DNA of 64,000 nucleotides from Acidobacteriota bacterium (GTDB lineage Bacteria; Acidobacteriota; JAAYUB01). The translations under genes and the position numbers were made by a program. Below the pieces are notes generated by a model, which did no database searches, was not told the DNA's origin, and worked only from the letters and a program-made list of their open reading frames with translations. Shown piece after piece: positions 8,611 to 62,432 of this stretch (positions are counted from its first letter, which is position 1; every line of letters begins with the position of its first letter). The stretch spans positions 120,975-184,974 of the forward strand of contig JAGNHB010000003.1 in assembly GCA_018001935.1 (NCBI GenBank), read 5' to 3'.

Positions 8611-8770
8611 CCGCGAACCCGTCAAAAAGTCGCCAATTGGAGATTTCCCGCGAATAACGCCGATTGACCCGAATACAGAAAACAAAGAAATAAAATGACT
8701 TTTCACATTCCGATTCGCGACGATTCGCGTGATTCGCGGGCTGCAAGGGACTTTTTGCGGGGGACGTCAA
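8611..8770. repeat. Copy A of a ~150-190 bp intergenic palindromic element family (GATTCGCG-rich; shared core AAAAGTCGC..GGAGATTTCCCGCGAATAAC..TTCCGATTCGCG..GATTCGCGTGATTCGCGGG..GACTTTTTGCGGGGG)
   Basis: Near-identical stretches recur at 14920-15105 and 46395-46530; element ends are inverted repeats of each other (CCCGCGAATCACGCGAAT / ATTCGCGTGATTCGCGGG; CAAAAAGTCGC / GCGACTTTTTG). Confidence 0.75.
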
Positions 8771-14600: not shown

Positions 14601-14875
14601 CCATCCTCATGACCTCCTTCGCCTTCGTCCTGGGCTGCGTCCCGCTCTGGGTGGCCCAGGGCTCCGGGGCCATCTCCCGCCAGATCCTGGGGACGGTGGT
14701 CATCGCGGGGATGCTGGCCTCCACCCTCATCGGCATCTTCGTCGTTCCCGTCCTCTTCGTCCTGGTGGAGTCTTTGGCGCACCGGAGGGGGAAGGCCCCC
14801 GCGCCTCCGGCGGAACCGGGGAATCCGGTCCCCGCACCGCCGGGCGGGGAAGCGCAGTGTCCACCCGCGGAGTGA
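11687..14875 (+). CDS. RND multidrug efflux pump, inner-membrane transporter (HAE1/AcrB family)
   Basis: 1062 aa; N-terminus MAKFFINRPIVAMVISIVIVLAGVVSLGGLPVAQYPDI is the canonical AcrB start; 12 TM with two large periplasmic loops; RBS GAGGAAGAGGA. Confidence 0.95.
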   Translation: MAKFFINRPIVAMVISIVIVLAGVVSLGGLPVAQYPDIVPPEILVSAFFTGADCQTLEQAVATPLEQQINGVDNMLYVRSTNGNDGSMALTVDFAVGTDVNTDQVLTQNRASQATASLPEDVKAYGVTVQKSTSTLLFIYSLYSPDNVYDRLFLSNYAYINLNDALLRVPGVSQVSVLGASPYAMRGWLDPGKLARLNLTIEDVVSAVKEQNNANPAGQIGTEPAPPGQQFTYSVRAQGRLVQAEEFGEVVIRANPDGSMVRLKDVARLELGAQFYNTVGRYNGAPAALVAVYQAPGSNALEVAAGVKQAMADLEKRFPPGLKAVLSLDTTLAVSSGIEEIVVTLLEAMVLVILVVYLFLQSWRATLIPLLTVPVSLVGTFMVFPLLGFSINTLTLFGMVLAVGLVVDDAIVVVEAVEAHMERGLDRKAATLKAMEEVTSPVVAVALILAAVFVPVAFMGGITGRLYQQFALTIAISVLISAFNALTLSPALCSLLLKHRGDKGKKSLLGRFFGGFNRVFDRAVDGYVGISRFLVRRTVRTFLLLLAMTGGMLFIGAKLPGGFVPDEDQGYFFLNVSLPEAASLQRTDALMRKVEQVLEKTPGIEGYTTISGFSLLSGVSSTFTGFAFVTLKPWDDRRGPGEDAKSILNGLNRKLSSLPEAMVFGFLPAAIPGVGKSGGFSFMLQDRSGGDVKFLADNVDKFLDAARKRPELANVSTMFRAEVPQLYADVDRPKCAKLGVDVGSVYLTLQTFLGGCYVNDFNRFGRQWKVYLQGAPDDRVRREDIGKFFVRAGDGTTVPLSSVVTIRETNGPEFTNRFNLFRAAEINGSAAPGYSSGQAMNALEEVANTVLPREMGYDWSGMSYQERKAPASAGVFALSLAFVFLILAAQYESWSLPFSVLLGTPVAVLGAFVGLLSRRLENDVFAQVGLVMLVGLAAKNAILMVEFCKAELEKGRPLVDAALAGARARLRPILMTSFAFVLGCVPLWVAQGSGAISRQILGTVVIAGMLASTLIGIFVVPVLFVLVESLAHRRGKAPAPPAEPGNPVPAPPGGEAQCPPAE

Positions 14876-14919: not shown

Positions 14920-15105
14920 GTCTTTTTTGCCCGCGAATCACGCGAATGAACGCGAATCAACAACTGACGGGGCCGCAAAAAGTCGCGAAAGGGAGATTTC
15001 CCGCGAATAACACGAATAATATCTAGTAGTTTTTGAATTCTGATTCGCGTTTATTCGCGTGATTCGCGGGCAAAATGCGACTTTTTGCGGGGGTGTCAAC
15101 GTTCG
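14920..15105. repeat. Copy B (most complete) of the GATTCGCG-rich palindromic intergenic element
   Basis: Left arm CAAGTCTTTTTTGCCCGCGAATCACGCGAATGAACGCGAATCA is the reverse complement of right arm TGATTCGCGTTTATTCGCGTGATTCGCGGGCAAAATGCGACTTTTTGCGGGGG; nested IR CCGCAAAAAGTCGCG / CGCGACTTTTTGCGG; matches copies at 8611-8770 and 46395-46530. Confidence 0.75.
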
Positions 15106-16718: not shown

Positions 16719-17342
16719 TTGCTCGAAACCTGTGCCAAGCTGCGGGCGGAGCCCCTTGATGCCGGACGCCAGGTCCCCGGCGACGGCGGTCCCGGGGAGC
16801 CTGGCCGGGCGGGTGCGACGCCGGGGACCCTGGACGACCTCATTTCCAACCACGGGAAGGCGGTGATCCGGGTGGCGCTCCGGATGCTCGGCTGCCTGGA
16901 CGAGGCCCGGAACGCCGCCCAGGAGGTTTTCCTCCGGGCCCACCGCTACGGCGCGTCGCGGGACCCCCGGCTGGACCCCGGTCCCTGGCTTTACCGCATC
17001 ACCGTGAACGTGTGCAACGAGACGCTGGGCCTCCGCCGGCGGCGGGCGGAACGCCCGCTGGCGGAGAGCGAGCGGGAGCAGCTGCGCACGCCCCCCGGGG
17101 AGGGGTCGTGCCCGGAGAGCGGGCTGCTGGAGCGGGAGCGCCGGGACATCCTGGCCCGCGCCCTCCTGACCCTCCCGGAACGGGAGCGGGCGGCGGTGAT
17201 CCTTCGGGACGTGGAGGGCCTGACCACCGCCGAGGCGGCGCGGGCCCTGGGAACCAGCGAGGCGACCGTCCGCTCCCACTCGAGCCACGGGCGGCAGCGG
17301 TTGCGCGAATACGTTCAGCGCGTTTTCGGGAGGCGATCATGA
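16719..17342 (+). CDS. ECF (group IV sigma-70 family) RNA polymerase sigma factor
   Basis: In ORF 16584..17342 frame; likely TTG start at 16719 with GGGGAG 6 nt upstream. Region 2 LISNHGKAVIRVALRMLGCLDEARNAAQEVFLRAHRY and region 4 LPERERAAVILRDVEGLTTAEAARALGTSEATVRSHSSHGRQRL. Confidence 0.8.
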   Translation: MLETCAKLRAEPLDAGRQVPGDGGPGEPGRAGATPGTLDDLISNHGKAVIRVALRMLGCLDEARNAAQEVFLRAHRYGASRDPRLDPGPWLYRITVNVCNETLGLRRRRAERPLAESEREQLRTPPGEGSCPESGLLERERRDILARALLTLPERERAAVILRDVEGLTTAEAARALGTSEATVRSHSSHGRQRLREYVQRVFGRRS

Positions 17343-19561: not shown

Positions 19562-20071
19562 ATGGACGAAAAGGCACGAAGAGGCCGCTACACGCGCATA
19601 CGGGCCCAACTGGAGGAATTGCTGACGAAGACGCCGGACCCCGTCGCCCGCATGGCCACCGTGGTGGCCCTGCTCCACCACAAGATGCCCCACTTCTTCT
19701 GGACCGGTTTCTACCGCCTCCTGGACGGCGACCTGGTGGTCGGGCCCTACCAGGGGCCCCTGGCCTGTCAGGTCCTGGCCCGGGGAAAGGGGGTGTGCTG
19801 GGCGGGTGTCCAGCGCGGGGAGAGCGTGGTGGTGCCCGACGTCGAGAAGTTTCCCGGGCACATCGCCTGCGACGCCCGCTCGAAGTCCGAGATCGTGGTC
19901 CCGCTGCGGGACGCCGCCGGCCAGGTCGTGGGGGTCCTGGACGTGGACAGCGACCGCCTCGCTGCCTTCGACGCGGTGGACCGGGAAGGCCTGGAGCCCA
20001 TCGTGGCGATGATCAGCCAGGAAGCCGGTGCCGCCCCGCCCACCCGGAAGCGCCGGACACCCGCGCATTGA
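19562..20071 (+). CDS. GAF-domain protein (free methionine-R-sulfoxide reductase / YebR family)
   Basis: 169 aa; FFWTGFYRL...LVVGPYQGPLACQVLARGKGVCW...EIVVPL conserved fRMsr-type GAF pattern with the Cys trio. Confidence 0.7.
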   Translation: MDEKARRGRYTRIRAQLEELLTKTPDPVARMATVVALLHHKMPHFFWTGFYRLLDGDLVVGPYQGPLACQVLARGKGVCWAGVQRGESVVVPDVEKFPGHIACDARSKSEIVVPLRDAAGQVVGVLDVDSDRLAAFDAVDREGLEPIVAMISQEAGAAPPTRKRRTPAH

Positions 20072-20097: not shown

Positions 20098-20500
20098 GAA
20101 GGGACAAGGGACAAAGGACCAAAAGGACCCAAAGGACATAAAGGACGGCGGGGAGTGAAGGGGCATCGTGTTCCGGGACCCGGACGGCGTTCTCGGCACC
20201 CTTCGGGTTCCCCGCACGGGTTGAGTTCTCCTCACGGGTCAGGTTTTGTCACGGGTTGGGTTTCTCCGCAGCAGCCGGGTTCCCCGCGGCAGCCGGGTTC
20301 TCCACACCCGTTACGCTTGATGGTCTCGTAAAAAGTCGGAAAAGGAACGGGAAAAGGTCTGTAAGACGTTTGTTTGAGCCATCACCCGGAGGGTGATGGT
20401 ACTTATTGCGACCGCGTCACGCTTCGTAAGCCTCTCCCGGGCCTGCCGTCCTTTATGTCTTTTATGTCCTTTTGGTCCTTTGTCCCTTGATCCCTTGACC
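20098..20500. repeat. Large palindromic intergenic element: inverted arms of tandem degenerate octamers (AAAGGACN)n flanking a ~290-bp non-coding core
   Basis: Left arm 20098-20150 GGGACAAGGGACAAAGGACCAAAAGGACCCAAAGGACATAAAGGACGG; right arm 20440-20500 is its reverse complement at about 85% identity; core has degenerate tandem GGGTTnnnTTCTCC..CAC units and a perfect hairpin CCATCACCC-GGAG-GGGTGATGG (20381-20401). It fills the whole space between convergent genes (stops 20071 and 20506). Confidence 0.8.
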
Positions 20501-20505
20501 GGCTA

Positions 20506-21639
20506 TCAGGTCGCCTCCCCCACGACTTCCGTCTCCAGGCGGTGGAGGGGTTTCAGGCCTGCTGCCGCGGCCGCGGCGTCGGGGAAGAAGGCTTCGTCGG
20601 GCTTGTCGGACAGGCCGAAAACCAGTGCCCCCCGGGCCCGGAGCCGCCGGGCGGTCTCGATCACCTCCCGGGTCAGGACGATGCGTTCCGCGAGGAGCGC
20701 TTTCACCGATTTCCCGTCCGCAGCACCGAACCGGGCGGCGGTGCAGCGGTACTCCATGGCGCGGAACGCCGGGAAGGGGGTCGGGTTCCCGTCCCGGAGC
20801 GCCGCCCGAAAGCGCCCGTGGAGAGTCCCCAGGCCGGCCGCTTCCACGTCGCCGCGACGGTGTTCGAGGTCCTCCGTGAAGTCTTCGAGGCGCTTCAACC
20901 TCCCGTTGCGAACCGCTTCCACCAGGGTCCCGAGGTCCGCGAGACCGGCGCCCACGACGAGGCAGACGTAGGCCAGCGTGTCCTGGTTGTCGCGGGTGAA
21001 GGCGTGGAAAGCCGGGCCTTTCAGGACCGCGTAGACTTCCCGGAACCGCCCCTCGTCCCGGCAGGGTCCCCCCAGGGCCGTCACCGTTCCCCGAAGGGCT
21101 TCCAGGCGCACGGCCTCGATAACCCTGTCGTTTCGTCCCCGGGCCGCGATCGCCGTCTTGTCGATGTCCACCACCACGACCGTATCCTCCCCCAACGGGA
21201 AACCCCTTGCCTCCAGTCGATCCAGGAAAAGCGGGAGGGCCGCCCAGCGGCCGGCGGCCATTCGGTCGCCCATCCCTTCCGCCCGGGACGCTTCCCCGGG
21301 CTCGTCGCTCCCGATGAAGAGGGCCCCGCGCCACCCGCCGGCGGCTCGAAGGTTCTCAAAGGCCGTGCCGTCGTTCATGAGGGTGTCCCCGAGGTAGAGC
21401 AGGTTTCGAAGAGCCGTTCCCGGGCGGTCTGCCGCGCTGGTACGCTGCAGGATCCCGGCCACGGCCCGGCCGTAGTCCGGGTCCGACTTGCGGGGGGGAT
21501 ACCGGCCGGTAAAACCCGGTTCCCCCCGAAGCCGGGGATAGGACGGCAACCCGGGGTCGGGCGGGACCAGGTTCCGGCAGAGGATGCGGTCCCCCACCAC
21601 AGAATGCAGCGTGTCGAGTCCGAAACAGCGGTATTTCAC
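20506..21639 (-). CDS. Hypothetical protein, HAD-superfamily-like hydrolase
   Basis: 377 aa; VVVVDIDKTA (DxDxT motif I) and ALVFGLSDKPDEA (motif III-like); weak assignment. Confidence 0.4.
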   Translation of the reverse strand: MKYRCFGLDTLHSVVGDRILCRNLVPPDPGLPSYPRLRGEPGFTGRYPPRKSDPDYGRAVAGILQRTSAADRPGTALRNLLYLGDTLMNDGTAFENLRAAGGWRGALFIGSDEPGEASRAEGMGDRMAAGRWAALPLFLDRLEARGFPLGEDTVVVVDIDKTAIAARGRNDRVIEAVRLEALRGTVTALGGPCRDEGRFREVYAVLKGPAFHAFTRDNQDTLAYVCLVVGAGLADLGTLVEAVRNGRLKRLEDFTEDLEHRRGDVEAAGLGTLHGRFRAALRDGNPTPFPAFRAMEYRCTAARFGAADGKSVKALLAERIVLTREVIETARRLRARGALVFGLSDKPDEAFFPDAAAAAAGLKPLHRLETEVVGEAT

Positions 21640-25443: not shown

Positions 25444-25489
25444 CAGAAACGAAAAACCCGCCACACAAGCTTGGATGGGCGGGTTCACC
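25444..25489 (-). terminator. Rho-independent terminator on minus strand (after OmpA-like gene, before met operon)
   Basis: Minus strand reads GAACCCGCCCATCCAAGCTTGTGTGGCGGGTTTTTCGTTTCT: stem CCCGCCA/TGGCGGG followed by a T-tract. Confidence 0.7.
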
Positions 25490-25658
25490 GGGCCCACGCT
25501 TTAGCAAAATTTCTAAGGCGCCTGCAAGCTGTGTGTCAAATCGGCGCCGACGCGACTATCGCAGAGAAGAAGGGGAATGTCAAGCCCTGAATCGGGGGCC
25601 CGACCGGCGCGGTGCAAGGGCGTCGCGGTACGAGGGCGGCGCGGAGGCTGCCGGAGCC

Positions 25659-35134: not shown

Positions 35135-35770
35135 GTGCGGGCGGAAAAGCGAAAGACGGAGGTCCGGAAGGAACAGATCGCCACGGCGGCGCTGCGGCTC
35201 GTGGCAAGCCAGGGCATGCGCGCCCTGACGCTGGACCGGCTGGCCGGCCTCGTGGGGCTGGTCCCCTCGGCCATCTACCGCCACTTCCGCGGCAAGGACG
35301 ACATCCTCAAGGCCGTCCTGGAACTGGTGGAGGCACGGTTTGCCGCCAACGTCCACGAGGCGAGGAAAGCGTCACCCTCGGTCCTGGAGGCCCTCCGGCG
35401 CCTTCTCCGGAAGCACATGGGGTTGGTGATGGAGTTCCAGGCCATCCCCCGGATCCTGTTCTCGGAGGACGTCTACAGCGGGAACCCCGAGCGGAAGGAC
35501 CAGCTCCACCGCCTGGTGAGCGGTCTGCTCGACGCCCTGCGGGCCATCTTCGAGGAGGGGCAGGCCCGGGGGGAAATCCGCGCCGACCTCCCGGCCGGCA
35601 GCCTGGCGGTGATGTTCCTGGGGCTTTTCCAGCCGTCGATGTTCCTGTGGCACCTGAGCGGCGGCGAATTTGACGTGGTTCGGCAGACCGAGCAGTCGTG
35701 GCGGGTCTTCACCGCCGCCCTGGAACCGCCGGGCGGCGAGGCAGGCAACGACAAAAGACAAATGATCTAA
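35135..35770 (+). CDS. TetR/AcrR-family transcriptional regulator
   Basis: In ORF 34727..35770 frame; GTG 35135 with AGGAAGG SD; HTH EQIATAALRLVASQGMRALTLDRLAGLVGLVPSAIYRHFRGKDDIL; sits immediately upstream of an HlyD-ABC-ABC2 export operon (CecR/YbiH-YbhGFSR-like arrangement). Confidence 0.8.
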   Translation: MRAEKRKTEVRKEQIATAALRLVASQGMRALTLDRLAGLVGLVPSAIYRHFRGKDDILKAVLELVEARFAANVHEARKASPSVLEALRRLLRKHMGLVMEFQAIPRILFSEDVYSGNPERKDQLHRLVSGLLDALRAIFEEGQARGEIRADLPAGSLAVMFLGLFQPSMFLWHLSGGEFDVVRQTEQSWRVFTAALEPPGGEAGNDKRQMI

Positions 35771-35998
35771 AGGACTTAAAAGACCTAAACGACTCAAAGG
35801 ACGTATGGGAATATGGGAGAGGCGAATCTGCGATGAAAGAAGGCGGGAGTTGCGGACATGCCGGCATCCCCGAGGCTGCTATGCCTCGCGCGGGTACGGG
35901 AGCGGTTCTACCCGGCAGAGGTGTCGGTCGTTCCGGCAAGGGGCCTGCCGTCCTTTTGGTCCCTTTGGTCGTTTTGGTCCTTTTGTCCTTTAAACGAT
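35762..35998. repeat. Octamer-armed palindromic element (second locus): inverted (AAAGGACN)n arms around a ~140-bp core
   Basis: Left arm 35762-35800 TAAAGGACTTAAAAGACCTAAACGACTCAAAGGACG; right arm 35940-35998 CGTCCTTTTGGTCCCTTTGGTCGTTTTGGTCCTTTTGTCCTTTAAACG (reverse complement of the same octamer array); lies between tetR stop and hlyD start. Confidence 0.75.
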
Positions 35999-37205: not shown

Positions 37206-37222
37206 AGGACGGATTTTCAACC

Positions 37223-37410
37223 ACGAAATTCACGGAATACACAAAACCTGAGAGACCTGATCGGGAAAACCCTTCACACCCTGCTGGCTTGCCTTATCGA
37301 ATTACAGAGGCCGAAGTAGTCGACAAGACGCATGCCTCTTCTTCGTCTTTTCCGAGAATTGATTCCATGCACCTGATTCGTTCGTGTATTTCGTGTATTT
37401 CGTGGTTAAT
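37223..37410. repeat. Decamer-armed palindromic element inside the operon (between hlyD and first ABC gene)
   Basis: Left arm CCACGAAATTCACGGAATACACAAAA (37223-37248); right arm TTCGTGTATTTCGTGTATTTCGTGG (37383-37408) is the inverse orientation of tandem CCACGAAATA-type units; about 130-bp core. Confidence 0.65.
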
Positions 37411-40520: not shown

Positions 40521-41648
40521 GTGTGGGAGCGCATCCGGCACATGATCCGCAAGGAGTTCATCCAGGTCCTTCGGGACCCGCGCACGCGAGGCGTCATCTT
40601 CGTCCTCCCCATCGTCCAGCTCCTGGTCTTCAGCTACGCCGTGAACACGGACGTGACCCACATCGCCCTGGCGGTGCGGGACGCCGACGGGACCGCCGCC
40701 AGTCGAGCCCTCGTCACGCGATTCACCGGTTCGGGCTACTTCGACCGGGTCTTCGATGCCGCCGACGAGCGGGACATCCAGCACGCCATGGACCACGGCT
40801 GGGTCCAGGCCACGCTGGACATCCCCCGCGGGTTCGGCGCCGAACTGGAGGGCGGACGCACGGCGGAAGTCCAGTTCCTGCTCGACGGGTCGGACTCCAA
40901 CACCTCGGGCATCATCCAGCAGTACGCCATCGGGATTCTCGGCGTCTACAACTCCGAGCAACTGAAACTCCGCATCCGCCGCCTGACCGGCGAAGCGCCC
41001 GCCGGCGGGGTGGAGTTACGCGCGCGGGCTTTCTTCAACGAGAACCTGGACAGCCGCAACTTCTTCATCCCCGGCGTGATCGCCCTCATGATCACCCTGG
41101 TGACCCTGATCCTCACCAGCCTGGCCGTGGTCCGGGAGAAGGAGGCGGGGACCATGGAACAGCTCATGGTGACCCCTATCCGGCCCAAGGAGATCATCAT
41201 CGGAAAGACGGTCCCCTTCGCCGTCATCGGTTTCGTGGACATCATCCTGGTGACCGTCGTGGGCGTCGCGTGGTTCGGCGTCCCGATCCGCGGAAATCTT
41301 CTCCTCCTCGCCGGGGCCACGGTGATCTACCTCCTCTCCACCCTGGGGATCGGCCTCTTCATCTCCACCATCAGCGGGACCCAGCAGCAGGCCCTCATGA
41401 GCACCTTCTTCTTCTTCCTGCCCGCCATCATGTTGAGTGGTTTCATGTTCCCCATCGCCAACATGCCGGAGGCCGTCCAGTGGATCACCTACGCCAACCC
41501 CATGCGCTACTACCTGGTGATCGTGCGTTTCATCTTCCTGAAGGGGGTCGGTGCGGACCTCCTCTGGCCTTACATCGCCGTCCTGGCCGGGATGGGTTTC
41601 GCCACCCTGGGCGCCGCTGTGCTCCGCTTCCGCAAGACCCTCCAGTAG
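40521..41648 (+). CDS. ABC-2 type transporter permease (paralog)
   Basis: 375 aa; VWERIRHMIRKEFIQVLRDPRTRG; 6 TM; GAGGTGA SD. Confidence 0.8.
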   Translation: MWERIRHMIRKEFIQVLRDPRTRGVIFVLPIVQLLVFSYAVNTDVTHIALAVRDADGTAASRALVTRFTGSGYFDRVFDAADERDIQHAMDHGWVQATLDIPRGFGAELEGGRTAEVQFLLDGSDSNTSGIIQQYAIGILGVYNSEQLKLRIRRLTGEAPAGGVELRARAFFNENLDSRNFFIPGVIALMITLVTLILTSLAVVREKEAGTMEQLMVTPIRPKEIIIGKTVPFAVIGFVDIILVTVVGVAWFGVPIRGNLLLLAGATVIYLLSTLGIGLFISTISGTQQQALMSTFFFFLPAIMLSGFMFPIANMPEAVQWITYANPMRYYLVIVRFIFLKGVGADLLWPYIAVLAGMGFATLGAAVLRFRKTLQ

Positions 41649-41714
41649 TGCGGCCCTCCGGCCTGCGACGGTGACGTAGCGCGGGGCTCCGTCCCGCGCA
41701 CGGTCCCGCCGCGG

Positions 41715-41738
41715 CGAGATCGTCCATCGCCCGGAGGG
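41715..41738. repeat. Conserved small hairpin motif CCATCGCCC-GGAG-GGGCGATGG-TAC (second copy; first at 20381-20404)
   Basis: The two copies differ in the stem by a compensatory pair (G:C vs A:T at the same stem position), preserving the 9-bp stem and GGAG loop. Confidence 0.6.
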
Positions 41739-42045
41739 CGATGGTACAGGGGACGCAGCGCGGCGCTCCGGGCCGCGCACGAGTGGAATCAGCCGGCCTG
41801 CGCCTTTGCGTGAGGCCTTTCACACCGATCCTATCCAGCGGCGCCCGGAATGGGTGTATCTTCACCTGTCAAGGCGCCAGGCGAAATGATCGTAGCTATG
41901 TCTCACTGAAAAGAAAAGAGATGTGTTTTTGCTCGCTATGTCTTGTTGATAGAGTAGGATTTAGGTAGCATCTGGCACCATTCTCGTTGTCTTGATCGAC
42001 GGTTTAGGCTATATTTCCATCCGTCAATCTTTTCGGGAGCGATGC

Positions 42046-43023
42046 ATGCCCGCCAACCTGACCCCCCAGTACCTGGACGCCGAGGAACAGTACAAGCGGG
42101 CCGCCACCGCCGAGGAAAAACGGGCGGCCCTCGAGGAGATGTACGCCCTCCTGCCCAAGCACAAGGGGACGGAGAAACTCCAGGCGGAGATCAAGAAGAA
42201 GCTCTCCCAGCTCAAGAAGGACCAGGAGAGCGCCAAGGGGCCCCAGCGGCACGACCCCACCGCGATCCCCCGGGAGGGGGCGGGGCGCGTGGTGCTGGTC
42301 GGCCCGCCCAACGCGGGAAAGAGCGCCCTGCTGCGGGCCCTGAGTTCGGCGGAGCCCGAGGTGGCGCCCTACGCCTTCACCACCCGCTTGCCCGAGCAGG
42401 GGATGGCGCCGTGGGAGGACATCCAGGTCCAGGTGCTCGACCTGCCGGCCGTCAGTCGGGAATTCATGGAGAACTGGGTCCCCGCCGTCATCCGGACCGG
42501 CGACCTGGCCCTCCTGGTGGCCGACCCGTCCAGCCCCGGCGTCCTGGAGGAGATCGAGGAAGTGGAGACGATCCTCCGGGAGCACAAGGTCTGGTTGAGC
42601 CGGTGCGATGGGGAACTCCCCCGGGGCGGCATCGTGGTGAGGGCCCTCCTGGTGGTCAACAAGATCGACCTGGCCGGCCCCGAGAGCGCCCAGGTGGTGG
42701 GCGAGTTCTTCGGGGACCGGTACCCCGTCCTTGCGGTGTCCGCCGAAGGCGGAGACGGCGTGGGGGAACTCCGGGCGGCCATCGTCCGGGAGCTGAACAT
42801 CGTCCGGGTCTACACGAAGATCCCCGGGAAGCCCTTCGTGAAGGAAAAGCCCTACGCCCTTCGGCGGGGGAGCGACCTGATGGACCTTTGCGCCATGGTC
42901 CACAAGGATTTTTCGGAGAAGCTCTCCTTCGCCCGCATCTGGGGGACCCACAAGTACGAGGGCCAGCGCGTCAACCGGGACTACGTCCTGGAAGACGGCG
43001 ACGTGGTGGAACTCCACCTTTAA
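42046..43023 (+). CDS. GTP-binding protein of the OBG/DRG family with C-terminal TGS domain
   Basis: In ORF 41992..43023; ATG 42046 (GGGAG SD); G1 GPPNAGKSAL, G3 DLPA..., G4 NKID; C-terminal TGS-like ...VYTKIPGKP...GDVVELHL. Confidence 0.75.
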   Translation: MPANLTPQYLDAEEQYKRAATAEEKRAALEEMYALLPKHKGTEKLQAEIKKKLSQLKKDQESAKGPQRHDPTAIPREGAGRVVLVGPPNAGKSALLRALSSAEPEVAPYAFTTRLPEQGMAPWEDIQVQVLDLPAVSREFMENWVPAVIRTGDLALLVADPSSPGVLEEIEEVETILREHKVWLSRCDGELPRGGIVVRALLVVNKIDLAGPESAQVVGEFFGDRYPVLAVSAEGGDGVGELRAAIVRELNIVRVYTKIPGKPFVKEKPYALRRGSDLMDLCAMVHKDFSEKLSFARIWGTHKYEGQRVNRDYVLEDGDVVELHL

Positions 43024-43072
43024 CCACGGATGGACACGGATGGACACGGATGCATTCATCCGTCGTTTGTCT
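43024..43072 (+). terminator. Tandem decamer repeat (CCACGGATGGACACGGATGGACACGGATG) running into a small hairpin and T-rich tail; likely terminator
   Basis: ACGGATG-CATT-CATCCGT hairpin (43046-43063) followed by CGTTTGTCT; immediately after stop 43023. Confidence 0.5.
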
Positions 43073-56817: not shown

Positions 56818-56868
56818 GTTATCGCGCCAAAGGACGAAAGGACCCAAAGGACCAAAACGACCCAAAGG
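56818..56868. repeat. Solo octamer array (AAAGGACN)n arm plus conserved core start (third locus; no inverted partner)
   Basis: CCAAAGGACGAAAGGACCCAAAGGACCAAAACGACCCAAAGGACGGAGAGCGCGAAAAGGGTCGGGG; the post-array GGACGGAGAG.GCG..GGGT.GGGG matches locus 59676-59740. Confidence 0.7.
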
Positions 56869-57061
56869 ACGGAGAGCGCGAAAAGGGTCGGGGAAGCGAA
56901 AGGCCACGGGGGCATGCGCCGCCCCGGTTCCCAAAGACGACCCGCTCCCCGGTGGAGATTCGACATTGGTAACGGGGGCGGCCGCCCGGAAACCCGTCAG
57001 CGCCGCGCGCGTGAGCAAGCGATTAAAGATCTGACCTTTACCACTCCCTCACGGTCGTGGC

Positions 57062-59675: not shown

Positions 59676-59812
59676 CGAAAAAGGACCAAGGGACCTAAAG
59701 GACCAAAGGGACCCAAAGGACGGAGAGGGCGGAAGGGGTGGGGTCAAAGAGCCCCTCTCGACGATGCTGTCCTTTAGGTCGTTTATGTCCTTTTGGTCCT
59801 TTGTCCTTTTCA
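59676..59812. repeat. Octamer-armed palindromic element (fourth locus), short 40-bp core with its own 7-bp hairpin
   Basis: Left arm AAAAAGGACCAAGGGACCTAAAGGACCAAAGGGACCCAAAGGACGG (59676-59722); core GAGAGGGCGGAAGGGGTGGGGTCAAAGAGCCCCTCTC (GAGAGGG/CCCTCTC); right arm GCTGTCCTTTAGGTCGTTTATGTCCTTTTGGTCCTTTGTCCTTTTCAGG (59762-59812) abutting or overlapping the def stop. Confidence 0.8.
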
Positions 59813-62371: not shown

Positions 62372-62432
62372 TTTCGTGTATTCCGTGTATTTCGTGGTCT
62401 ATTTCGTGGTCTATTTCGTGGTCAGTTCTCTT
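62372..62432. repeat. Solo tandem decamer array (TTTCGTGTAT / CTATTTCGTGG units, five units)
   Basis: TTTCGTGTATTCCGTGTATTTCGTGGTCTATTTCGTGGTCTATTTCGTGG; same unit family as 37383-37408. Confidence 0.7.

What the first reader, a model, noticed from the sequence alone, without database searches (positions are those of the whole stretch)
20098..20500. Family of palindromic intergenic elements whose inverted arms are tandem degenerate octamers (AAAGGACN)n
Four loci (20098-20500, 35762-35998, 56818-56868, 59676-59812) carry 40-60-bp arrays of a degenerate octamer such as AAAGGACC / AAAGGACG / TAAAGGAC. Three of them are paired with a reverse-complement array 40, 140 or 290 bp away, so each locus can fold into a very long imperfect hairpin. 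The arms share a conserved continuation (GGACGG-GAG-G.G-AAGGGG). Each element precisely fills an intergenic gap: between convergent genes, between tetR and its target operon, and between def and the Calx-beta gene. One locus is a solo arm. I know no described REP/MITE class with arms made of tandem octamers. They could be protein-binding arrays, bidirectional terminators, or a MITE with oligomer-built TIRs.
Basis: seen in the sequence. Interest (0 to 1): 0.7.

Follow-up and report, generated by a model that had tools for sequence, protein, structure and literature searches.

The report
Nonamer-array hairpin repeats, IVS-like
The four loci are gene-less copies of a dispersed hairpin repeat whose stems are tandem 9-bp units (NN+AAAGGAC); the same repeat occurs in many bacterial phyla and brackets a conserved four-helix-bundle gene related to the proteins encoded inside 23S rRNA intervening sequences.

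Summary
Three loci are long imperfect hairpins and one is a solo arm. All are intergenic and lie 0-27 nt from a stop codon. The source is an Acidobacteriota MAG.

The element is an insertion. Three distant relatives have a 26-54 bp TetR-HlyD gap where the window has 268 bp. A closer relative (HlyD 91% identical) keeps the element with different unit counts. Short-read contigs break inside the arms.

The same arrays occur in more than 120 loci across many phyla (about 2-3 expected by chance). They are mostly in the order AAAGGAC-arm then GTCCTTT-arm (37 versus 7). No transposase sits nearby.

Instead, 9-bp GAC-unit arrays of this kind flank a highly conserved ~190-aa "four-helix-bundle suffix" gene (TIGR02436+TIGR04258, Avd/S23p fold): 29 of 80 loci versus 1 of 534 control windows.

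The closest known relatives are 23S rRNA intervening sequences. The Coxiella one also has GAC-containing tandem repeats before its S23p ORF.

Most likely these are IVS/REPIN-like selfish hairpins, tolerated because the RNA stem is processed or terminates transcription. Function and mobilisation are inferred, not shown.

The parts
20099..20146 (+). L1 left arm: 6 units (AAGGGAC AAGGGAC AAAGGACC AAAAGGACCC AAAGGACAT AAAGGAC). It starts 27 nt after the GAF gene stop (20069-20071).
20147..20447 (.). L1 interior (about 300 nt). It begins GGCGGGGAGTGAAGGGG and ends GGGCCTGCC. It holds 17-18-bp tandem repeats and the hairpin CCATCACCCGGAGGGTGATGG, which recurs at 41722-41748. It may be a nested composite.
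20448..20496 (-). L1 right arm, (GTCCTTTNN)n. It is 92% complementary to the left arm and ends about 10 nt before the stop codon of the convergent 377-aa ORF (20506-20508).
35747..35802 (+). L2 left arm, about 7 degenerate units. The TetR stop codon (35768-35770) is the TAA of a TAAAGGAC unit.
35803..35949 (.). L2 interior. Its 3' end is a small GC hairpin (CGGCAAGGGGCCTGCCG) followed by the T-rich arm, and the terminator scan flags it.
35950..35991 (-). L2 right arm, 5 units. The conserved operator-like sequence and the HlyD start (36039) follow.
56827..56870 (+). L3 solo arm, 5 units, 19 nt after the Fer4 gene stop. It is followed by the family's left inner motif GGAGAGCGCGAAAAGGG. It has no inverted partner and no significant fold.
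59678..59721 (+). L4 left arm, 5 units, about 160 nt upstream of the Calx-beta start codon. Independent metagenome contigs end at 59694, inside this arm.
59722..59768 (.). L4 interior (47 nt), containing an inner GC hairpin GAGAGGGC...GCCCCTCTC.
59769..59809 (-). L4 right arm, 5 units. It directly abuts the def stop codon (TCA at 59810-59812 on the + strand).

Best explanation
**What they are.** The four loci are ORF-less copies of a widespread extragenic hairpin repeat. The stem arms are tandem 9-bp units: two free bases plus a (A)ARGGAC core. They are insertions into the short gaps just after stop codons. The arms change by gain and loss of whole units.

**What they belong to.** The same hairpins sit about 20 nt upstream of, and often also downstream of, a highly conserved ~190-aa 'four-helix-bundle suffix' gene with the S23p/Avd fold. 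That is the gene family found inside 23S rRNA intervening sequences (IVS). I therefore read the window elements as extragenic, gene-less relatives of IVS-type selfish hairpins. They stand to the gene-carrying form roughly as REPINs stand to their RAYT gene.

**How they probably work (inferred).** When transcribed from either side, the purine-rich arm pairs with the later U-rich arm into a 30-60 bp RNA stem. That stem ends or insulates the upstream message, by an intrinsic-terminator-like effect and/or RNase III cleavage as shown for IVS. This would make insertions between genes, even inside operons, harmless.

**How copies spread.** Unknown. The flanked four-helix-bundle protein is the obvious candidate partner, but this is unproven.
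For: **Shown: the repeat family and its hairpins**
- The arrays, inverted arms and fold statistics are real.
- The four loci share inner-junction motifs, so they form one within-genome family.

**Shown: it is an insertion**
- The TetR-HlyD gap is 268 bp in the window and 270 bp in L124 (HlyD 91% identical).
- The same gap is 54, 47 and 26 bp in L126, L384 and L385 (HlyD 62-65% identical). The operator-like sequence after the TetR stop is also kept in L126.
- The HlyD-ABC junction is 0 bp in those three relatives. In the window a 243-bp gap holds another array hairpin there.

**Shown: fast unit turnover**
- The orthologous L124 element has 8 and 4 units in its arms, against about 7 and 5 in the window, and a diverged interior.

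**Shown: repeat behaviour in assemblies**
- Contigs end inside the arms.

**Shown: distribution**
My estimate of the chance expectation is about 2-3.
- 37 pairs are in plus-then-minus order and 7 are in the opposite order.
- By context, 28 elements lie between convergent genes, 41 between tandem genes and 12 between divergent genes. The background is 100, 242 and 107.

**Shown: link to the four-helix-bundle gene**
- In five phyla a gene about 67-68% identical in nucleotides lies between or next to AAAGGAC arrays.
- The gene matches TIGR04258 (E 1e-21), TIGR02436, and weakly PF05635.
- Of 80 further loci fetched by the protein alone, 29 have an array of at least 4 GAC units at 9-bp steps in a flank. 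Among the 40 closest, 24 do. Control windows score 1 of 534 (p = 3e-27).
- The distance from the hairpin end to the start of the protein match peaks at 19-20 nt.
- The unit spacing is 9 in 310 of 331 steps, and the spacer positions carry 0.02-0.05 bit.
- A finished Prevotella nigrescens replicon also shows a variant array next to an annotated member of the family.

**Shown: fold of the protein**
- The AlphaFold model has mean pLDDT 89.5. Its best PDB matches are Xcc0516 (2GSC), BT_0352 (2RLD) and the Avd chain of a DGR ribonucleoprotein (8UB7).

**From the literature**
- The Coxiella IVS is a selfish stem-loop with a 28-bp terminal stem cut by RNase III.
- It has an S23p ORF in the loop.
- It carries 2-3 tandem GACAGAT heptamers, varying in copy number, upstream of the ORF (PMC4990558).
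- IVS are thought to spread horizontally (PMC11270868).
Against: - The window has no four-helix-bundle gene, even at E <= 10 with a family profile. The link therefore rests on other genomes.
- The usual arrangement is a hairpin upstream of the ORF, not an ORF inside the loop. Only L054 shows the classic IVS layout.
- The association could be co-inheritance within one cassette, with no functional interaction.
- There are no transcript data. RNase III cleavage and termination are inferences.
- L1 lacks a U-run after its stem, and L3 does not fold at all.
- The gene calls behind the context statistics are crude, and the enrichment is moderate.
- The closest relatives for L3 and L4 could not be aligned base by base.
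Confidence: 0.6

Rival explanations
1. They are locally evolved bidirectional intrinsic terminators. Each hairpin arose in place by slippage and quasi-palindrome correction, and is kept only because it ends transcription. No mobility or common origin is involved.
For: - The elements abut stop codons. They are enriched between convergent genes and depleted between divergent ones.
- Polarity is purine arm then U-rich arm in 37 of 44 pairs.
- Every unit reads as a small A-tract / GC clamp / U-tract module.
- One terminator-like site is flagged at the L2 inner junction.
Against: - The same 7-nt core and the same inner-junction motifs recur at four loci here and in many phyla.
- Relatives have clean empty sites with 26-54 bp gaps.
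- There is a specific association with one gene family.
- L3 is a solo arm with no fold, and L1 has no U-run after its stem.
- The terminator scan finds no more sites than in shuffled sequence: 14 against 13.7.
Confidence: 0.15
2. They are double-stranded DNA binding arrays for an oligomerising protein (operator, centromere-like or nucleoid site). The hairpin potential is a by-product of head-to-head site arrangement.
For: - The period is strictly 9 bp (310 of 331 steps), with a conserved 7-nt core and information-free 2-nt spacers.
- Spacer bases are only partly palindromic between arms, 47% against 30% expected.
- Arms have 3-6 units.
- Relatives of the adjacent four-helix-bundle protein form pentamers (PMC4990558) and sit in a ribonucleoprotein complex (8UB7).
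Against: - There is no fixed position relative to promoters.
- The outermost units are only 7-8 bp long in L1 and L2.
- Arrays are sometimes read through by ORFs.
- No DNA-binding motif is known in the candidate protein.
- This reading does not explain the insertion-like distribution. It could also hold alongside the best explanation.
Confidence: 0.15
3. They are classical MITEs or REPINs moved by a DDE transposase or a RAYT (HUH Y1 transposase) encoded elsewhere in the genome.
For: - They are short, numerous, intergenic, inverted-repeat elements that break assemblies.
- A gene flanked by its own repeats is the REP-RAYT signature.
- The genome also carries GTAG-headed REP-like palindromes at about 41640-41790.
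Against: - I saw no target-site duplication by eye at L1 or L4.
- No transposase or RAYT-like ORF recurs in 120 array loci or 80 gene loci.
- The arms lack the GTAG/CGTC tag and are tandem arrays, not REP palindromes.
- The flanked gene is a helical bundle with no known nuclease motif.
Confidence: 0.08

Closest known systems
23S rRNA intervening sequences (IVS) carrying an S23p / PF05635 ORF (Coxiella, Leptospira, Salmonella)
   Same: - A long stem made of terminal inverted repeats.
- Tolerated inside transcribed DNA.
- Scattered, horizontally spread distribution, in both gene-carrying and gene-less forms.
- The associated protein has the same four-helix-bundle fold.
- The Coxiella IVS has GAC-containing tandem short repeats, variable in copy number, just upstream of the ORF (PMC4990558, PMC11270868).
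   Different: - The elements here lie between protein-coding genes, not in rRNA helices.
- The stems are built almost wholly of 9-bp units.
- The gene belongs to the 'suffix' subfamily (TIGR04258) and usually lies after the hairpin, not in its loop.
- RNase III cleavage has not been tested.
REP / REPIN elements with their RAYT gene
   Same: - High-copy extragenic palindromes at gene 3' ends.
- Inverted dimers that form long hairpins.
- A conserved gene flanked by the repeats it is associated with.
- Family-specific sequence within a genome.
   Different: - No GTAG/CGTC tag.
- The arms are tandem arrays, not single palindromes.
- The same core occurs across phyla.
- The partner gene is not a HUH Y1 transposase.
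Cyanobacterial STRR (short tandemly repeated repetitive) heptamers (my recollection of Mazel et al. 1990; not read here)
   Same: Tandem short units in intergenic DNA, in several sequence families per genome.
   Different: - The period is 7, not 9.
- STRR are described for heterocystous cyanobacteria.
- I know of no reported gene association and no fixed inverted two-arm architecture.
Bidirectional intrinsic terminators
   Same: A symmetric hairpin between convergent genes, with an A-rich 5' side and a U-rich 3' side on both strands.
   Different: - The stems are 30-60 bp, not 5-15 bp.
- They have a repeat-unit construction and a weak or absent terminal U-run.
- They behave as dispersed insertions.

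Membership tests
23S rRNA IVS | Inserted in a 23S (or 16S) rRNA helix | tested here: not met
   All four loci lie between protein-coding genes. Rfam finds no rRNA in the window.
23S rRNA IVS | Bordered by complementary sequences that form a long stable stem | tested here: met
   Met for L1, L2 and L4: arms of 32-48 nt, fold z-scores from -2.8 to -8.2. L3 is a solo arm.
23S rRNA IVS | Some members carry an ORF for a PF05635/S23p four-helix-bundle protein | tested here: inconclusive
   Absent from the window. Present next to, or in L054 inside, the same array hairpins in other genomes.
23S rRNA IVS | Excised from the transcript by RNase III | not testable with these tools
   This needs RNA end mapping in wild type versus an rnc mutant. 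The stem lengths are compatible.
REP/REPIN-RAYT | A 20-40 bp imperfect palindrome tagged by GTAG or CGTC | tested here: not met
   The arms are tandem nonamers with no such tag. This is the definition given in PMC3733652.
REP/REPIN-RAYT | Repeats flank a RAYT (HUH Y1 transposase) gene | tested here: not met
   The recurrently flanked gene is TIGR02436/TIGR04258. No transposase cluster appears in 200 loci.
MITE | Terminal inverted repeats plus a target-site duplication | tested here: inconclusive
   Inverted arms are present. I saw no convincing duplication by eye at L1 or L4. The empty sites available are too diverged for base-level junctions.
MITE | A parent autonomous element with the same ends | tested here: not met
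   None was found in the 120 + 80 loci. Whole genomes were not searched.
Intrinsic terminator | A GC-rich stem directly followed by a U-tract | tested here: inconclusive
   There is one scan hit at the L2 inner junction, and the scan total equals the shuffle expectation. L4 ends in U4-U5, while L1 has no U-run.
STRR | Tandem heptanucleotide units | tested here: not met
   The period is 9.

The most novel reading that the evidence does not exclude
The four-helix-bundle suffix protein is the sequence-specific partner of the arrays. As an oligomeric ring, like its pentameric relatives, it would bind one ARGGAC core per subunit on a single strand, much as TRAP binds spaced triplets. It would thereby control hairpin formation, and it would drive or guide copying of the hairpins to new sites just after stop codons. 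That would be a REPIN/RAYT-like genome symbiosis run by an Avd-like protein rather than by a transposase, possibly through an RNA intermediate.
Probability: 0.25. Interest if true: 0.85.

Novelty: new variant of a known kind. Interest (0 to 1): 0.68.

Why it matters
- **A function for an orphan protein family.** S23p / 'four helix bundle' proteins are abundant: at least 8000 clusters at 90% identity for this subfamily alone. Apart from the DGR accessory protein Avd, they have no known function. A conserved nucleic-acid partner with a defined 9-nt code makes that question testable by binding assays.
- **A wider view of IVS.** The link suggests rRNA intervening sequences are one niche of a broader class of hairpin elements that also colonise mRNA 3' ends and operon junctions.
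- **A practical cost in metagenomics.** These arrays break short-read assemblies. They also extend called ORFs: the TetR tail in L124 and the 4HB N-terminus in L377 are read through the arrays.

Tried and rejected
- **Rfam.** At gathering and at E <= 1 it gave nothing at the loci except a chance miRNA-precursor hit caused by the long stem.
- **Shared neighbour genes.** Among the 120 array loci there is no transposase, RT or nuclease. The only array-linked cluster was the four-helix-bundle ORF.
- **Neighbours of the four-helix-bundle gene.** The only recurrent one is hsdM, in 8-9 of 80 loci. There is no RT or transposase.
- **Phage origin.** Viral contigs have 116 AAAGGAC arrays but no plus-then-minus pair. 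Most lie in long ORFs. I suspect collagen-like Gly-X-Y coding, which I did not test.
- **CGCGAAT arrays in viral contigs.** In 10 of the 54 loci they sit beside a recurrent ORF that I judged, by eye only, to be a replication-initiator-like gene. They look like iterons, a separate phenomenon.
- **Orientation of solo arms.** There is no bias relative to gene direction (16 sense, 12 antisense, counted by hand). This argues against a strand-specific RNA motif.
- **Arm-to-arm covariation at spacers.** It is only partial.
- **Defence and structure libraries.** PADLOC, PHROGs and the PDB sequence search gave nothing for the protein.
- **A wrong recollection.** I remembered the family as classed within HEPN, but that paper does not mention it.
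- **Orthologues of the Calx-beta gene.** They show no array where L4 sits, but the flanks are too diverged to define junctions.
- **GC skew.** It is uninformative for orientation.
- **Two extra GAC-run hits.** Those at 14741-14774 and 16815-16838 are coding-sequence coincidences.

Full report
**1. The observation**

All four loci carry the arrays.
- AAAGGAC occurs 28 times in the window against 6.2 expected, and no shuffle reaches that number.
- Tandem Repeats Finder assigns period 9, with 18-bp double units, to every arm. The unit is therefore a nonamer: two variable bases plus AAAGGAC. Shorter 7-8-bp units occur only at the outer ends.
- Inverted partners exist at L1 (48 nt, 92% complementary, 289 nt apart), L2 (35 nt, 77%) and L4 (32 nt, 78%). 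L3 is a solo arm.
- As RNA, L1 folds at -214 kcal/mol (z -8.2). L4 folds at -71 and -62 kcal/mol on the two strands (z about -5.8). L2 gives z -2.8. L3 does not fold.
- The arms share inner-junction motifs: AAAGGAC-GGAGAGGGCGG..AAGGGG on the left and GGGCCTGCC-GTCCTTT on the right.
- The window has 67.8% G+C. The AAAGGAC-type units are A+T-richer: a unit is 3 G+C in 7 core bases.

**2. Context**

- The source is an Acidobacteriota MAG with locus tags KA419_.
- Every element lies 0-27 nt from a stop codon:
  - The TetR stop is the TAA of a TAAAGGAC unit.
  - The def stop directly abuts the L4 right arm.
  - The L1 arms end about 27 and 10 nt from the two convergent stops.
- No Rfam family matches the loci.

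**3. The elements are insertions and evolve quickly**

- I searched for homologues of the HlyD-type adaptor next to L2.
- The closest relative (91% identical, L124) has the element at the same place, but:
  - its arms have 8 and 4 units against about 7 and 5 in the window;
  - its interior has diverged;
  - its TetR ORF runs through the whole left arm.
- Three more distant relatives (62-65% identical: L126, L384, L385) have TetR-HlyD gaps of only 54, 47 and 26 bp. The operator-like sequence after the TetR stop is also present in L126.
- In those three relatives the HlyD and ABC genes touch with no gap. In the window and L124 a different array hairpin (CACGAAATA units) separates them, so it was inserted inside an operon.
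- Independent short-read contigs end inside the arms.
- Orthologues of the Calx-beta gene (82-85% identical) show no array where L4 sits. Their flanks are too diverged to define the junctions.

**4. Distribution**

- I scanned one genome per species for three AAAGGAC cores spaced by 1-3 bases. My estimate of the chance expectation is about 2-3.
- Hosts include Thermoanaerobaculia and other Acidobacteriota, Hydrogenedentota, Chlamydiota, Planctomycetota, Verrucomicrobiota, Rhodanobacteraceae, Nitrospirales and Cyanobacteria.
- 37 pairs have the order AAAGGAC-arm then GTCCTTT-arm, and only 7 have the reverse. RNA read from either side therefore has the purine-rich arm first and the U-rich arm last.
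- With crude gene calls, 28 elements lie between convergent genes, 41 between tandem genes and 12 between divergent genes. The background is 100, 242 and 107.
- Solo arms show no orientation bias relative to neighbouring genes (16 sense, 12 antisense, counted by hand).
- Spacer bases match between the two arms in 47% of positions against 30% expected. Palindromy is therefore only partly maintained there.
- In viral contigs the same pattern occurs 116 times, but never as a plus-then-minus pair and mostly inside long ORFs. I suspect coding repeats, which I did not test. That is a different thing.

**5. The gene link**

- No transposase recurs near the arrays.
- An all-against-all DNA comparison showed a ~500-bp segment about 67-68% identical between loci from Pirellulaceae, Hydrogenedentota, Nitrospirales and a MAG labelled Clostridia. 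A truncated copy occurs in a Parachlamydiaceae locus. In each case it lies between or beside AAAGGAC arrays.
- The segment encodes a ~190-aa protein that matches TIGR04258 (four helix bundle suffix domain, E 1e-21), TIGR02436 (four helix bundle protein) and, weakly, PF05635 (23S rRNA intervening sequence protein).
- To test the link without selecting on the arrays, I fetched loci by the protein alone. At least 588 were found and 80 were kept.
  - An array of at least four GAC units at 8-10-bp steps lies in a flank of 29 of the 80 loci, and of 24 of the 40 closest. Control windows in the same loci score 1 of 534 (p = 3e-27).
  - A plus-then-minus hairpin lies upstream in 22 of 72 loci and downstream in 11 of 62.
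  - The distance from the hairpin end to the start of the protein match peaks sharply at 19-20 nt.
  - In 456 units the spacing is 9 bp in 310 of 331 steps. The consensus is NN-a-A-R-G-GAC, and the two spacer positions carry 0.02-0.05 bit.
  - More distant proteins have other A/T parts (ATGGGAC, ATAGGAC, GGGGACA) but keep GGAC or GAC.
  - The upstream and downstream flanks are often direct repeats of one hairpin, interior included.
- In a 3-Mb contig the unit sits right after the lpdA stop codon. The called ORF starts at an ATG that overlaps that stop and reads through both arms.
- 8-9 of the 80 loci follow an hsdM gene.
- A finished Prevotella nigrescens replicon shows a variant array beside an annotated family member, so the arrays are not an assembly artefact.
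- The window itself has no homologue of the protein.

**6. The protein**

- The family is very large and strongly conserved: at least 8000 clusters at 90% identity, many 75-80% identical to the query.
- The AlphaFold model is confident (mean pLDDT 89.5) and all-helical.
- Its best PDB matches are Xcc0516 (2GSC), BT_0352 (2RLD) and the Avd chain of a DGR ribonucleoprotein (8UB7).
- There is no match in PADLOC, PHROGs or the PDB sequence search.

**7. Comparison with known systems**

- IVS of 23S rRNA are stem-loops bordered by inverted repeats. RNase III cuts them out without religation, and they are thought to spread horizontally. Some carry an S23p ORF of unknown function (PMC11270868, PMC4990558).
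- The Coxiella IVS has a 28-bp terminal stem and the ORF in its loop. It also has 2-3 tandem GACAGAT heptamers, variable between strains, just upstream of the ORF, with the RNase III site at the first repeat (PMC4990558). That is the nearest published parallel.
- PF05635 genes have also been noted wedged between cas genes (PMC3936711).
- The elements are not REPs in the sense of PMC3733652: they have no GTAG/CGTC tag and no RAYT.
- A full-text search for six array strings found no paper.

**8. Mechanism**

Shown:
- It is a repeat family.
- It is an insertion.
- Its units turn over.
- It has a fixed arm polarity.
- It lies close to stop codons.
- It is associated with the four-helix-bundle gene.

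Inferred:
- The RNA stem terminates or is cut by RNase III, which makes insertions harmless.
- The 9-bp period (three codons) keeps unit gain or loss in frame where ORFs run into the arrays.
- The protein may recognise the units.

The means of spread is unknown.

**9. Verdict**

This is a real, widespread element family that I could not find described, related in form to IVS and REPINs. Its membership and gene association are well supported. Its function and mobility are open.

Noticed in passing
window 8711-8738; 14929-14960; 15000-15020; 15041-15070: A second array family with ATTCGCG/CGCGAAT cores (period 9-10). It forms an inverted pair at 14929-15070 and a solo arm at 8711-8738. Each arm is joined to a conserved 'head', CCCCGCAAAAAGTC, about 8 nt beyond the array. 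It is not linked to any gene here.
   Followed up: partly
window 37218-37250 / 37378-37407; 62372-62428: A third family with (CACGAAATA)n units. One inverted pair was inserted between HlyD and its ABC gene, which touch in three relatives. The pair is conserved in L124, whose contig ends inside it. A 6-unit array also lies upstream of a Phd/ParE toxin-antitoxin pair.
   Followed up: partly
window 43021-43057: A (CACGGATGGA)x3 array just past the end (43023) of the 41992-43023 ORF and upstream of dnaJ. It forms a short hairpin with the following CATCCGT. The ACACGGATG unit resembles my recollection of the CsrA-binding consensus.
   Followed up: no
window about 41640-41790: Three GC-rich REP-like palindromes with GTAG/GCAG heads (for example GTAGCGCGGGGCTCCGTCCCGCGCAC). 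This is a classical REP-type family, distinct from the arrays. Contigs of relatives (L381, L382) end in a similar sequence.
   Followed up: no
window 20381-20405 and 41722-41748: The hairpin CCATCACCCGGAGGGTGATGGTAC lies inside the L1 interior. It recurs as CCATCGCCCGGAGGGCGATGGTAC, with a compensatory A-T to G-C change in the stem.
   Followed up: no
window 25484-25557 (-): A SAM_alpha riboswitch match just below threshold (34.2 bits against 36; E 5.7e-4). A sigma-70-like promoter lies directly upstream at 25583-25555.
   Followed up: no
L252, L259, L262, L266 (viral contigs): Composite arrays, (CCTTGRT)n followed by (CGCGAATSCT)n, lie beside a recurrent ORF that I judged by eye to be a replication-initiator-like gene. 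They are probably phage origin iterons.
   Followed up: partly
L303, L316, L319, L323 and others: Four-helix-bundle suffix genes with their hairpins often sit inside type I restriction-modification operons. An upstream hsdM is supported by ORF clustering. The downstream hsdS or hsdR assignments are only my reading of translated flanks.
   Followed up: partly
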